Below are positions 6,081 to 9,000 of a stretch of 29,210 nt of DNA, piece after piece; the first letter of the stretch is position 1; each line of letters starts with the position of its first letter. Made by a program: the position numbers. Source of the DNA: a virus. Taxonomy: Duplodnaviria; Heunggongvirae; Uroviricota; Caudoviricetes. The DNA lies in IMG/VR virus record IMGVR_UViG_2874968258_000002. One strand, 5' to 3'.

Positions 6081-9000
6081 GCCTGCTGAGCTAAGTCGGC
6101 GCTGGCCCACCACCGAGGACTCGAACCTCGCACCGTCAACTTAGAAGGTTGATGCTCTATCCGGATGAGCTAGTGGTGGTTGGTGGCCCTTGCTGGACTT
6201 GAACCAGCGACCTGGCGATTATGAGTCGCTCGCTCTGACCAACTGAGCTAAAGGGCCGGAGGCAGAATAATAACCATATGTCATCACATCTGCAAACTCA
6301 TCTGACCACCAGCACGTTTAACGTCCTGTGCCGTTTTTCAGGTATAAAAAAACCCGCTCATCGGCGGGTTTAAGCTGTGTGGCGTAGTAACCACTCTTAA
6401 CAGGATATTCAACTTTTTACGATCGTAAAGTTTTCGGAAAAAATTTTTAAAACCGCATCAACCGCTCCACCAGTTGCTCTTTACGGGCAACGATCCACCC
6501 GTGTTGCTCCAGATAAAATTTAAACCGTTCCAGAGTACATACCATCGCATCGGCGGGTACCTTTTCCGTGAACTCAACCTGACCGTGTTTATCGAAGTGG
6601 CTCAGTAATGCGCATCCATCATTTTCGATAGATGTGTTTTGTGCCGCTGGTGGCTGTTTCTGGTTGAAATAACAGTCTTCCAGTTTTTCGAACACTTCCC
6701 ACGCCTGATCGGTTTCGAGCATTTTGGCGTGACGGGCTGCGCCACGTTCTGTCCAGAGGATGAGGGAGCGAACGTTACGGGCAATTTTCACAGAAACTCT
6801 TAAAGAGTTTTCGTTCTTCAACTCTCGTAACGCATCACCTTCTATCAGGAAAAAATGTTTACCTTCTATAAACCGTTCTTTGTTTCGATTGAAATTGTTT
6901 GTCAAACGCTGGCGCTCTGTTCCGTACAAATCAGCCAGCAGCTCTGTTGTCATGACAGGAAGATGGTTATGCGTAAGTGACGGGAGTTTTTCAATAGACG
7001 TGCGATTCATAGACATGTCCTTTCGAATATTTTGATTTACCCCTTTTGAGAGGGTGACCGGGCGCTCAAAACCGTCGAAAGTCGGCGGGCGTATTTCCAT
7101 TGCTGGTATTGTATTAGCCGCACACCCGGTCATAAACCAAGAATTCTGGACACAAAAAAACCACATGGCTATCGGGTGTGGATACCGCTTTCGAGGTGTT
7201 TTGAGCACCGCGGGGAAATGTAAACTGCAAACCTGAAACTGTCAACACCGTCAGGTTCCAATCATCGGGTGGTGAGACGCACAGGGTTGGAACTACCGGG
7301 AAACCGACCGGCGAGCTTTTCAGCTCCCCCATGCGCCCCACCATAATTCAGATGTGCGCGTGCATACGACAATAAAAAACACGCTCGCGGCGTGTGTCTG
7401 TCGCGGTCTCTATCCGGGGTTCCAATCCCGACGCCAGATTTTGCTGGCGCGTGAGGAATATAGCCCCGGACAATGTGTCTGGTCAAGCACCTACATAATT
7501 CGTTCTACGTATCTGTCCATCTCCAGCCGGATATCAAGCATCATCAACATGCCATCAATAACCCCTTCCGCTTTCTGCAGGCGCTTGCCAATACAGGTAT
7601 CCGAACACCCATGTTTCCGTGCCAGACTCATAAAAGTCATTCCACCTACGTAATAATCCACCAGCAAATCGTGCAAATCCTGATTTTTCTTGTTCAACCG
7701 GGCCATACAGCCACAAATTATCATTGCATCATCATCAGAACACTGAGGGCGTGATTTCACTTTCGACGGAATTAACCCTTTAAAACCAGCAGCGATCGAC
7801 GCCCAGGATACATCTTCATGAGTGTTTGCAGCCCAAGCCCCCCACCGTTCCATAACCTGCTGAATATCACGCGCCATCGTTATCACCTGTGATTTCATAA
7901 ATCTTCACGCCCAGTCGCCCACCAGGAACGAGCTGACCGCGCACAATATTGATTTCATCAAACTGCTCGTCGTCTATGAGTAGTCCGGCATGCGTCAGCG
8001 CATCCAGTGGTGCTTTCAGGATATTGTCCAGGTCACGACGGCGCTTATCCGGTGGCTCTGCAATAATCTTTATCGCCAGCCTTCCGGACAGGTTTAATTT
8101 CAGCCGCTGCTGGCGAACAATTAGCGTCACATCACGGCGATAACGCTCACCAACTTTTGATACAAAATATGTGCTGCCACGACGTCGCCAGTAAGTATTC
8201 ACCGTCGGCGGATAAGGTAAAATAAACTCATGGCGCATCAGCGCAGCACCTCCTGCACCATTTTTTCAAACTTTCCAACTTTGGTTTCCAGCTCTGCCAC
8301 ACAATCAACGAGCTCATCCACCGCTTTTTGTGCGCGATGTTTCGCCTGCATCAGTTCCCTGAGCGCTGGCACCATATCCCGACGAATGGCATCTTTTGTT
8401 ACACCTGTTTTTTCCAGTTGTTCCGCCTGTCGCAACATTTCCTGCGCGTGTTTACGCAATTGTTCAGAGGTAAAAGTCATTGTCTGGTTGTTCAAAAGAA
8501 ACGCTCCATCTTACTGCTGTCGGTACGTGTATTGCTGTATCTGCGCGGCTGGGGCTGCCGCATTGGGGTGGAAAGAACCTGTGCGCTTTCCTGGTCCACA
8601 GGCAGAAAATGTCCGTTATAAAAACGCCGGTAAATCGTCCCCAGAGAACCGTTACGTTGTTTCGTGATATTAATTTCTGCTATGCCTGTAGCCTGTGTAT
8701 CCGGGTTGTACACTTCATCCCTGTAAAGCATCAGAATGATGTCTGCATCCGCCTCTATTTCTCCGGAATTTTTCAGGTCTGAGTTCATGGGACGTTTATT
8801 GGGTCTGGACTCCACACCGCGGGAGAGCTGGCTCAGCGCAATCAACGGAAAACCACCGGATTTTGCCAGGCCTTTAAGCCCCTTTGAGATTTCACCCACG
8901 GCAAGGTCATGACGCCCCGTGGTTCGGGTTTTTATCAGCCCGAGATAATCAACCACCACCAGCGCCGTTTCCGGATGTTTAATCAGATGGTGTTTCGTTG

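What the first reader, a model, noticed from the sequence alone, without database searches (positions are those of the whole stretch)
7378..7490. Late promoter and short terminated leader directly after Q
A near-consensus TTGACC-18-TATATT promoter starts 5 bp after the Q stop and is followed within about 70 nt by a hairpin plus U-tract. This is the pR'/tR' arrangement through which Q-modified polymerase would reach the downstream late genes; the short transcript could also act as a small RNA.
Basis: partly seen in the sequence, partly recalled or inferred. Interest (0 to 1): 0.45.

Follow-up and report, generated by a model that had tools for sequence, protein, structure and literature searches.

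The report
IsrK leader RNA, not late promoter
The promoter and 77-nt terminated RNA just after the prophage Q gene are real, but they are a copy of the known IsrK small RNA that heads a mobile antisense-RNA/antirepressor cassette wedged between Q and its own late promoter, which lies about 1 kb further on.

Summary
TTGACC-18-TATATT (7486..7457) starts at the fifth base after the Q stop codon. A three-hairpin 77-nt RNA (7450..7374) follows and ends in a GC hairpin plus U6.

The pR'/tR' reading is not supported. The RNA is a full-length match to Rfam isrK and c4-a1b1, and a C4-type antisense RNA follows at 7348..7265.

In 129 copies from phages and prophages the same promoter and leader follow three different Q families, NinE, an integrase and other genes. 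The loop of IsrK hairpin 2 (b1), the C4 b' site and a b2 site after C4 match in 70 of 73 distinct copies, across 16 specificities. All 739 b1:b' cells form standard pairs.

The Q here is about 80% identical to the 144-aa Q of Stx phages. The block homologous to their mapped PR' lies after the antirepressor gene at 6429..6340, before four tRNAs and the lysis genes. All 18 cassettes behind this Q type keep that block downstream. 14 of 15 behind 82-type Q keep an IsrJ-like block instead.

So this is the promoter and decoy leader of a P1 immI-like cassette inserted between Q and PR'. It is a new member of a known kind.

The parts
7491..7898 (-). Antiterminator Q gene (135 aa). It belongs to the same family as the 144-aa Q of Stx phages, but the C-terminal tail differs after ...YVER.
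   Evidence: PF06530, E=2.7e-52. About 78-81% identical to the Q of BP-4795, VT2phi_272 and related phages. 33.8 bits to Q21 structures 6jnx/6p18.
7457..7486 (-). PisrK promoter: -35 TTGACC 7486..7481, 18-nt spacer, -10 TATATT 7462..7457.
   Evidence: TTGAC and TATATT are (nearly) invariant in 73 distinct copies. The conserved block starts at TCCGGGGCTATATT, while the 5' half of the spacer varies with the upstream gene.
7374..7450 (-). IsrK-type 77-nt leader/sRNA. Hairpin 1 is 7450..7432 (loop GCAAAAUC). Hairpin 2 is 7430..7415, with the b1 site UUGGAAC at 7425..7419 in its loop. The terminator hairpin is 7395..7379, followed by the U-tract.
   Evidence: Rfam isrK 77.5 bits (gathering score 50), full length. 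Rfam c4-a1b1 50.1 bits (gathering score 46.7) over 7463..7411. MFE fold gives the three hairpins.
7265..7348 (-). C4-type antisense RNA. Its b' site GUUCCAA is at 7293..7287, in the single-stranded junction.
   Evidence: Rfam C4 71 bits (gathering score 45). b' is the exact reverse complement of b1 and b2 in 70 of 73 distinct copies, across 16 specificities. All 739 b1:b' cells pair, with 124 double-sided changes; 0 of 500 shuffles reach this.
7242..7261 (-). b2 target UUGGAAC (7261..7255) followed by a degenerate Shine-Dalgarno-like block GGTGTTGA (7249..7242). Relatives have GGTGGTGA followed by the ant start.
   Evidence: Nearly all of the 73 distinct copies have GGTGGTG(A/G) here, and only the window sequence (identical to L018) has GGTGTTGA. 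The cassette's own ant is replaced here by a second unit.
7217..7245 (-). Second promoter-like site, TTGACA-17-TACATT, heading tandem unit 2.
   Evidence: 10 of 12 matches. The equivalent site in phage Nil2 is TTGACA-18-TATATT and is annotated there as 'promoter by homology'.
7048..7131 (-). sRNA-Xcc1-type RNA. It has the same topology as C4. The loop of its hairpin 2, CUUUCGA (7081..7075), is complementary to UCGAAAG both upstream (7194..7188) and at the ant Shine-Dalgarno region (7026..7020).
   Evidence: Rfam RF02221 77.4 bits (gathering score 53). The three-way match holds in 5 of 5 distinct copies with 3 specificities, plus a fourth in WGPS6.
6447..7016 (-). Antirepressor-like gene (ORF6N domain), 189 aa.
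   Evidence: PF10543, E=8.9e-21. 72% identical to the ORF6N protein behind the cassette in E. coli C311 and 49% to Gifsy-1 AnrP.
6340..6429 (-). Probable cognate late promoter PR' and its leader. -35 TTTACG is 6429..6424 (inside the palindrome TTTACGATCGTAAA), spacer 16 nt, -10 TATCCT 6407..6402, inferred start about 6394..6392. A hairpin GUGGU..GCCAC is followed by a terminator hairpin 6371..6350 plus U7.
   Evidence: About 84% identical to the block that overlaps the Q stop in Stx phages. There the PR' start was mapped 258 nt before tR' (PMC7547250), which agrees with L003 position about 1970. Leader fold z = -4.2. Present behind 18 of 18 cassettes that follow this Q type.
5947..6296 (-). 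tRNA promoter-like site (6296..6267) and four tRNA genes (Met, Arg, Thr, Gly), lying between PR' and the lysis genes.
   Evidence: This is the same layout as the tRNA cluster after PR' in VT2phi_272.
4090..5266 (-). Late lysis genes: holin (5266..5051), lysozyme (5051..4554) and Rz (4569..4090). Further terminator-like hairpins precede them at 5688..5669 and 5333..5307.
   Evidence: PF04971, PF00959 and PF03245; terminator scan.

Best explanation
The feature is PisrK plus the IsrK leader. These are the promoter and first, terminated segment of a mobile cassette of the P1 immI / P4 immunity type (a1b1 leader, C4 antisense RNA, b2 target, antirepressor). The cassette of about 1.05 kb (about 7500 to 6440) sits between the Q gene and Q's own late promoter.

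How it most likely works:
- A sigma-70 promoter fires constitutively in the lysogen. Most transcripts stop at the IsrK terminator and give a 77-nt Hfq-binding RNA.
- Read-through transcripts carry the C4-type RNA.
- The single-stranded b' site of C4 pairs with b2 next to the ribosome-binding site of the antirepressor message and keeps it silent.
- The loop of IsrK hairpin 2 carries the same sequence as b2 (b1). It pairs with b' in cis, which gives the inactive structure. As free IsrK in trans it competes for b', which opens the message.

Shown here: the sequence elements, their family membership, the three-way b1/b'/b2 covariation, the mobility of the cassette and the separate Q-cognate PR' block.

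Taken from Gifsy-1 experiments (PMC4825925): the start site, termination and read-through, Hfq binding, trans-activation of antirepressor translation and the link to prophage induction.

Inferred: that this copy behaves the same way. It has lost its own b2-linked ant and is fused to a second unit, sRNA-Xcc1 plus ORF6N ant. Its C4/IsrK pair may therefore now act mainly in trans on other prophages that share the UUGGAAC specificity.

Q-modified polymerase is predicted to load at 6429..6394, not here.
For: - Rfam hits above gathering score, in the order isrK/c4-a1b1, C4, sRNA-Xcc1 and then ORF6N ant.
- The promoter, IsrK, C4 and b2 align from the -35 onward with Gifsy-1, where Q is the different 82-type (PF06323). 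They also align with Nil2, PhiR12_1 and WGPS6, where the cassette sits in the nin region, and with the left arm of VT2phi_272. Sequence upstream of the -35 is unrelated between these contexts.
- Of 129 copies, 18 follow Q933-type Q, 17 follow DUF1133, 15 follow Q82-type Q and about 26 follow NinE. Others follow an integrase, a Lar/DUF551 protein and further genes.
- b1 = reverse complement of b' = b2 in 70 of 73 distinct copies, across 16 specificities. 100% of b1:b' cells pair, with 6 pairs showing compensatory change and 124 double-sided cells. 0 of 500 shuffles reach the observed pairing or covariation score, and slid controls pair only 30-59% of cells.
- The Gifsy-1 mutations G28A/G31A and their compensating C162U/C159U fall in b1 and b' (with numbering).
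- Window 6429..6341 is 84.6% identical to the PR' block of Stx phages.
- The same block precedes the holin in DLP12-like phages, where a porin gene separates it from Q.
- The late-promoter block tracks the Q type: 18 of 18 for Q933-type, 14 of 15 for Q82-type, and no cross-matches.
Against: - No transcript data exist for this sequence. The start site and termination are inferred by homology.
- About 40% of sampled copies abut a Q stop codon within 5 nt. This could hint at a functional link with Q.
- The 5' half of the promoter spacer co-varies with the upstream gene, so a Q-type-specific element there cannot be excluded.
- CAAAAT at +8..+13 is a 4-of-6 match to a -10 element and could act as a sigma-dependent pause element.
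- In this copy the b2-linked Shine-Dalgarno-like block is mutated and the cassette's own ant is gone, so the cis-regulatory function is degenerate here.
- A pairing partner (a') for the loop of hairpin 1 could not be shown.
- The sample was seeded with an exact 22-mer from the IsrK terminator. It is therefore biased towards close relatives.
Confidence: 0.8

Rival explanations
1. This is pR' with its tR'. Q loads on polymerase at this promoter, reads through the 7395..7373 terminator and reaches the late genes. The short RNA is the lambda 6S / StxS-type by-product.
For: It lies immediately after Q (4 nt), has a near-consensus promoter and ends in an intrinsic terminator within 80 nt. 50 of 129 copies abut a Q gene of some family. 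A possible -10-like element, CAAAAT, lies at +8..+13.
Against: The same promoter and leader follow three different Q families and many non-Q genes. There is no similarity to the mapped PR' of this Q family. That PR' is present separately at 6429..6340, and in 18 of 18 such loci. What lies downstream is C4 and ant, and a further terminator and the PR' block come before the late genes. In Gifsy-1 the locus acts upstream of Q expression, not downstream of it (PMC4825925).
Confidence: 0.07
2. A dual-use element. PisrK is the cassette promoter, and its terminator also serves as a checkpoint for polymerases arriving from the early operon through Q. Those polymerases would be N- or Q-modified. Antirepressor synthesis would then be coupled to lytic commitment, and this would explain the recurrent placement at the end of the early operon.
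For: In all lambdoid contexts examined in detail the cassette lies in the rightward early operon, either in the nin region or directly after Q, on the same strand as the genes upstream of it. It has been captured directly after Q in three Q families.
Against: This is purely inferential. The cassette also occurs after an integrase and in the left arm of VT2phi_272, opposite a divergent gene. No expression data are available.
Confidence: 0.1
3. A chance promoter-like and terminator-like pair with no function, or a small protein-coding ORF (7486..7262, 74 aa; 7473..7348, 41 aa).
For: The scan counts do not exceed those of shuffled sequence. Fold z is only -1.2. ORFs exist on this strand.
Against: Rfam E=3e-15. 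The promoter hexamers and terminator are invariant across 73 distinct copies, and the changes that do occur are RNA-type compensatory changes. The ORFs have no Pfam hit.
Confidence: 0.02

Closest known systems
IsrK sRNA and the isrK-orf45-anrP locus of Salmonella prophage Gifsy-1 (Rfam RF01394; Hershko-Shalev et al. 2016, PMC4825925)
   Same: The match to the family model is full length. The promoter architecture is the same (TTGACn-18-TATATT). Both lie directly after a Q gene and are followed by a C4-like stable RNA (STnc1160/orf45 region) and an ORF6N antirepressor. About 83% nucleotide identity over 7486..7258.
   Different: The Q upstream belongs to another family (PF06530 here, PF06323 in Gifsy-1). 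The b specificity differs (UUGGAAC here, UUGGCGU in Gifsy-1). Here the antirepressor directly coupled to b2 is missing and a second unit (sRNA-Xcc1 plus ant) follows. The orf45 equivalent is 76 codons long and ends inside that unit.
immI region of phages P1/P7: a1-b1 leader, c4 antisense RNA, a2-b2, icd, ant (Rfam RF01695 C4 and RF03163 c4-a1b1; the P1/P7 biology is from my own knowledge of Citron and Schuster 1990, as cited in PMC7313666)
   Same: The order of elements on one transcript is the same. The antisense RNA is embedded in the message it controls. Upstream and downstream copies of its target are present. Target sequences covary with the antisense RNA as immunity-type specificities.
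   Different: The host here is a lambdoid prophage, not P1. The leader ends in an intrinsic terminator and accumulates as an sRNA of its own. Only the b interaction is supported here, and the a interaction could not be shown.
P4 immunity: seqA, CI RNA, seqC (named as a structural homologue of IsrK in PMC4825925)
   Same: A leader sequence complementary to a processed antisense RNA made from the same transcript.
   Different: In P4 the pairing causes transcription termination. Here and in Gifsy-1 the documented effect is on translation of the antirepressor message. This was not tested here.
Lambdoid PR'-tR' units and their by-product RNAs (lambda 6S RNA from my own knowledge; StxS of Stx phages, PMC7547250)
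   Same: A constitutive promoter next to Q, early termination, and a short Hfq-binding RNA in the lysogen.
   Different: There is no sequence relation to the PR' of this Q family. The element is not co-inherited with any one Q family. The window contains the true counterpart at 6429..6340. That counterpart lacks the 3' part that gives the 74-nt StxS.

Membership tests
IsrK sRNA (RF01394) | Covariance-model score above the curated gathering score over the full model | tested here: met
   77.5 bits against 50, model positions 1-77 of 77, E=3.3e-15
IsrK sRNA (RF01394) | Own sigma-70 promoter and an intrinsic terminator that give an RNA of about 77 nt | tested here: met
   TTGACC-18-TATATT and hairpin plus U6, conserved in 129 copies. 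The transcript ends themselves were not measured.
IsrK sRNA (RF01394) | Followed on the same strand by the complementary stable RNA (STnc1160/C4 region) and an antirepressor gene | tested here: met
   C4 at 7348..7265 and ORF6N ant at 7016..6447. The directly coupled ant is replaced by a second unit.
IsrK sRNA (RF01394) | Hfq binding and trans-activation of antirepressor translation | not testable with these tools
   Known only for Gifsy-1 (PMC4825925)
P1-type c4 / a1b1 antisense control (RF01695, RF03163) | a1b1 leader and C4 RNA both score above gathering score, in that order on one strand | tested here: met
   c4-a1b1 50.1 bits against 46.7; C4 71 bits against 45
P1-type c4 / a1b1 antisense control (RF01695, RF03163) | The antisense b' site is complementary to both the upstream (b1) and downstream (b2) targets, with covariation | tested here: met
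   70 of 73 distinct copies match exactly, across 16 specificities. 100% of b1:b' cells pair; 0 of 500 shuffles reach the observed pairing or covariation score.
P1-type c4 / a1b1 antisense control (RF01695, RF03163) | The a' site is complementary to a1 and a2 | tested here: inconclusive
   At most 5 bp (AAAUC with GGUUU). The variant hairpin 1 in VT2phi_272-type copies is not matched by a change in C4.
P1-type c4 / a1b1 antisense control (RF01695, RF03163) | b2 lies next to the ribosome-binding site of the controlled antirepressor message | tested here: not met
   Relatives have b2-GGTGGTGA followed by the ant start. The window has GGTGTTGA and no ant start, and unit 2 follows instead. The feature is met in relatives but degenerate in this copy.
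Lambdoid PR'/tR' Q-utilisation unit | A promoter with an early terminator immediately downstream of Q | tested here: met
   4 nt after the Q stop; terminator 55 nt after the inferred start
Lambdoid PR'/tR' Q-utilisation unit | The promoter block is specific to, and co-inherited with, its Q family (it carries the Q binding element) | tested here: not met
   The same block follows PF06530-type, DUF1133 and PF06323-type Q genes and also non-Q genes. The Q933-family block lies at 6429..6340 instead and is present in 18 of 18 such loci.
Lambdoid PR'/tR' Q-utilisation unit | A sigma-dependent pause element (-10-like) in the early transcribed region | tested here: inconclusive
   CAAAAT at +8..+13 (7443..7438) matches 4 of 6, including A2 and T6. 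It is also conserved in non-Q contexts and is absent from the variant hairpin 1.
Lambdoid PR'/tR' Q-utilisation unit | Q-dependent read-through into late genes | not testable with these tools
   Needs reporter or in vitro transcription assays

The most novel reading that the evidence does not exclude
The IsrK leader is a built-in decoy for its own C4 antisense RNA, and the IsrK terminator is the switch point of the cassette. The cassette has been captured at the very end of the rightward early operon, exactly at the Q|PR' junction, in at least three Q families. Polymerases that are antiterminated on their way through Q would therefore override the IsrK terminator and turn on antirepressor synthesis. 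That would couple cross-induction of co-resident prophages to lytic commitment. A further reach is that the conserved CAAAAT at +8..+13 lets Q itself engage this promoter.
Probability: 0.2. Interest if true: 0.5.

Novelty: new member of a known kind. Interest (0 to 1): 0.3.

Why it matters
This corrects an annotation trap. In many lambdoid prophages the first promoter and terminated RNA after Q is not the late promoter. It is the head of an inserted antisense-RNA/antirepressor cassette, and the Q-responsive promoter can lie a kilobase or more further on.

The comparison also links three lines of work that have been described largely separately. These are IsrK of Gifsy-1, the c4/a1b1 immunity RNAs of P1, and the late-promoter leader RNAs (StxS, and by inference IsrJ). 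It shows many interchangeable pairing specificities, as expected for an immunity-like system that lets prophages talk to or ignore each other.

For this particular window the practical consequence is that reporter or RNA-mapping work on late-gene control, including control of any cargo behind PR', should target 6429..6340.

Tried and rejected
- RNAduplex-type predictions for IsrK with C4 and for C4 with the downstream region gave over-extended duplexes that were not informative. The direct three-way comparison and pair counting replaced them.
- I looked for an a1/a' pairing like that of P1. At most 5 bp were found and there was no covariation, so it was not adopted.
- I looked for the Q21 binding-element sequence in the Q21 structure preprint (10.1101/651190). 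The passages returned by the term search gave no sequence, so no direct QBE motif test was possible.
- Rfam returned no StxS match on the Stx-phage locus. The PR' leader was therefore identified by alignment to Stx phages and by the published distances (258 nt to tR', RNase E site at +173).
- The consensus promoter scan does not list the PR'933-like promoter, which by my own count of the hexamers matches only 8 of 12. Its assignment rests on homology, not on the scan.
- The first alignment of sequences downstream of Q failed for the Stx phages because their Q is 9 codons longer. It was redone with the correct coordinates.
- The small ORFs over the leader were considered as coding sequence and rejected.
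- The leader of unit 2 does not fold significantly as a terminator in this copy, so it is reported only as a lead.
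Full report
**Observation**

Everything lies on the minus strand. A 135-aa ORF (7898..7491) is an antiterminator Q of Pfam family PF06530 (E=2.7e-52). Its stop codon TAG is at 7493..7491. Four bases later comes TTGACC (7486..7481), then an 18-nt spacer and TATATT (7462..7457). This is a 10-of-12 match to the sigma-70 consensus. A GC-rich hairpin at 7395..7379 followed by six T (7378..7373) is the terminator-like site.

The given coordinates cut off the U-tract. By pattern counting alone the region is not special: 4 promoter-like sites against 3.4 expected, and 3 terminator-like sites against 3.6 expected. The folding energy of the RNA is also unremarkable (z about -1.2). 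The evidence that it is real comes from comparison with other sequences.

**What it is**

A scan of the window against Rfam gave four adjacent minus-strand hits above the curated thresholds:
- isrK (7450..7374, 77.5 bits, full length)
- c4-a1b1 (7463..7411, 50.1 bits)
- C4 antisense RNA (7348..7265, 71 bits)
- sRNA-Xcc1 (7131..7048, 77.4 bits)

An ORF6N-domain antirepressor-like gene follows at 7016..6447. The predicted fold of the 77-nt RNA is three hairpins, the last being the terminator.

IsrK is a characterised Hfq-binding sRNA of Salmonella prophage Gifsy-1. It lies directly after a Q-like gene. Part of its transcripts read through the terminator into orf45 and anrP (an antirepressor). 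The short form activates translation of the long form in trans. A stable RNA (STnc1160) is processed from the read-through transcript, and the authors compare the arrangement with seqA/CI of P4 (PMC4825925).

The window aligns with Gifsy-1 from the -35 hexamer through the site after C4 at about 83% identity.

**The promoter belongs to the cassette, not to Q**

In Gifsy-1 the upstream Q is of the 82 type (PF06323), a different Pfam family from the Q in the window. In phages Nil2, PhiR12_1 and Stx2a_WGPS6 the same promoter, IsrK and C4 block sits in the nin region after ninE, with Q further downstream. In VT2phi_272 it sits in the left arm. In all six cases TTGAC, the spacing and TATATT are conserved, and the sequence upstream of the -35 is unrelated.

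A scan of viral contigs for the IsrK terminator 22-mer returned 120 loci. Together with the earlier loci this gives 129 copies, and nearly all have TTGACn-18-TATA(T/G)T. The gene that ends at the -35 is as follows:
- a Q933-type PF06530 Q in 18 copies (one locus, L018, is identical to the window)
- a DUF1133 protein with weak PF06530 similarity in 17
- an 82-type Q in 15
- NinE in about 26
- an integrase in 2
- a Lar/DUF551 protein in 1
- various others

The conserved block begins at TCCGGGGCTATATT. The 5' half of the spacer differs according to the upstream gene. This fits recombination within the conserved block.

**The leader is a target mimic of the C4 RNA**

Three sites were compared in an alignment of 73 distinct copies: the loop of IsrK hairpin 2 (b1, UUGGAAC at 7425..7419), a single-stranded stretch of C4 (b', GUUCCAA at 7293..7287), and a site just after C4 (b2, UUGGAAC at 7261..7255). 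In 70 copies b1 equals the reverse complement of b' and equals b2. There are 16 different specificities.

Formal pair counting for b1:b' gave 100% standard pairs in 739 cells. Six pairs showed changes on both sides, covering 124 cells. 0 of 500 shuffles reached the observed pairing or covariation score. Only 30-59% of cells paired when the partner column was slid.

The Gifsy-1 mutations that defined the inactive structure (G28A and G31A in IsrK, with compensating C162U and C159U) fall in b1 and b' (with numbering). This is the logic of the P1/P7 immI region. There the c4 RNA pairs with a2/b2 at the ribosome-binding site in front of ant, and identical a1/b1 sites lie upstream (my own knowledge of Citron and Schuster 1990, as summarised in PMC7313666). 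I could not demonstrate an a-type interaction.

**Where the late promoter is**

The window Q is about 78-81% identical to the 144-aa Q of Stx phages. It diverges from them after ...YVER, at about 7500. In those phages PR' overlaps the end of Q. The primary start was mapped by dRNA-seq 258 nt upstream of tR', with an RNase E site at +173 (PMC7547250). On VT2phi_272 these distances place the start near L003 position 1970, after TTTACG-16-TATCAT.

The window contains a homologue of exactly this block 17 nt after the ant stop. It has TTTACG (6429..6424), a 16-nt spacer and TATCCT (6407..6402), followed by a leader with two hairpins. The second hairpin (6371..6350) is followed by U7. Identity to the Stx-phage block is 84.6% over 91 nt, and the leader fold has z = -4.2.

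The same block follows the ORF6N gene in E. coli C311, which has the same Q-cassette arrangement. It also lies just upstream of the holin in DLP12-like phages, where a porin gene on the other strand separates it from Q.

Across the census, all 18 cassettes that follow a Q933-type Q have this block 0.8-3.0 kb downstream. 14 of 15 cassettes that follow an 82-type Q instead have a block homologous to the Gifsy-1 isrJ promoter and leader. There are no cross-matches. In phages without the cassette, the isrJ-like block directly overlaps the end of an 82-type Q that is 59% identical to the Gifsy-1 Q.

The late-promoter block thus travels with the Q family. The PisrK block travels with the cassette. 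The simplest reading is that a cassette of about 1.05 kb was inserted, or exchanged by recombination, between Q and PR', replacing the last few Q codons.

Behind PR' come a tRNA promoter-like site, four tRNA genes, two more terminator-like hairpins, and then the holin, lysozyme and Rz genes. This is the layout expected for a Q-dependent late operon.

**State of this copy**

In relatives, b2 is followed by GGTGGTGA and, about 30 nt later, the antirepressor start codon. In the window (and in the identical L018) this block reads GGTGTTGA, and the cassette's own antirepressor gene is absent. In its place is a second unit with these parts:
- a promoter-like TTGACA-17-TACATT (7245..7217). The equivalent site in Nil2 is TTGACA-18-TATATT and is annotated as a promoter.
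- a short leader
- the sRNA-Xcc1-type RNA
- the ORF6N gene

The Xcc1-type RNA has the same topology as C4. The loop of its second hairpin is complementary to a site upstream and to a site on the ant Shine-Dalgarno region. These three sites change together in four specificities. So unit 1 of the window (IsrK plus C4) no longer has a cis target. If it is active, it would act in trans on other prophages that have the UUGGAAC specificity.

**Verdict**

The feature is a new copy of a known kind (IsrK / c4-a1b1), so its interest is modest.

The points that go beyond the literature I read are these:
- the explicit equation of the IsrK hairpin 2 loop with the b1 site, supported by many covarying specificities
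- the recurrent placement of the cassette at the Q|PR' junction in three Q families
- the inference that IsrJ is the displaced late-promoter leader of Gifsy-1
- the c4-like behaviour of sRNA-Xcc1

None of this was tested experimentally here. The census was seeded with an exact 22-mer and is therefore biased towards close relatives.

Noticed in passing
window 7245..7002 (-): There is a second tandem unit. It consists of promoter-like TTGACA-17-TACATT, a short leader, an sRNA-Xcc1-type RNA (7131..7048) and the ant start at 7016. Xcc1 has the same topology as C4. Its hairpin 2 loop (CUUUCGA) is complementary to UCGAAAG both upstream (7194..7188) and on the ant Shine-Dalgarno region (7026..7020). 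Four covarying specificities were seen in relatives (UCGAAAG, CAAGUAG, CAAACAG, CUAAAG). sRNA-Xcc1 therefore looks like a c4-class antisense regulator of ORF6N antirepressors.
   Followed up: partly
L002 (Gifsy-1) 3840..3947; L131 1201..1310; L132 1201..1289: The promoter and leader of the Salmonella sRNA IsrJ are homologous to the stretch that directly overlaps the end of 82-type Q genes in phages lacking the cassette. They follow 14 of 15 cassettes placed behind 82-type Q. IsrJ is probably the PR' leader RNA of Gifsy-1, displaced from Q by the isrK-anrP cassette.
   Followed up: partly
window 6429..6416 (-); L004/L005 about 4545: The -35 of the PR'933-like promoter lies in a perfect palindrome, TTTACGATCGTAAA. 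DLP12-like phages have TTTACGTACGTAAA, which keeps the symmetry through a double change. This is a candidate protein-binding site, possibly for Q.
   Followed up: no
window 7249..7242 (-): The block after b2 is GGTGTTGA here and in the identical L018, against GGTGGTG(A/G) in nearly all other distinct copies. The change creates the TTGACA hexamer of the second promoter-like site and coincides with loss of the cassette's own antirepressor gene.
   Followed up: partly
window 7480..7471 (-) and relatives: The 5' half of the PisrK spacer differs systematically with the upstream gene: Q933-type AGACACATTG, DUF1133 CAATCTGTTA, 82-type CAAACAGTTA, NinE TGATGATTTA. The b specificities are shuffled within each group. 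This fits recombination inside the conserved TCCGGGGCTATATT...GGGATT block, but a context-specific function is not excluded.
   Followed up: partly
L004 2504..4625; L005 2504..4608: In DLP12-like phages a porin gene (annotated OmpD) on the opposite strand lies between the Q933-type Q and the PR'933-like block. This is a second kind of insertion at the same Q|PR' junction.
   Followed up: partly
window 7344..7114 (-): The counterpart of Gifsy-1 orf45 starts at the same position (+107; a second AUG is at +119). Here it is 76 codons long and ends inside the Xcc1-type RNA. Its length is therefore not conserved.
   Followed up: no
window 9999..11272 (-) and 8492..10024 (-): Two overlapping ORFs (136 aa and 301 aa) look from their translations like a two-ORF insertion-sequence transposase. 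They abut and overlap the start of a 510-aa ORF whose translation looks like a replicative helicase. This suggests that an insertion sequence has disrupted or displaced the prophage replication region. No family search was run on any of these ORFs.
   Followed up: no
window 5947..6296 (-) and 27602..27677 (-): Four clustered tRNA genes (Met-CAU, Arg-UCU, Thr-UGU, Gly-UCC) with a promoter-like site lie between PR' and the lysis genes, as in Stx phages. A further tRNA-Met lies far to the right, possibly at the prophage attachment site.
   Followed up: no
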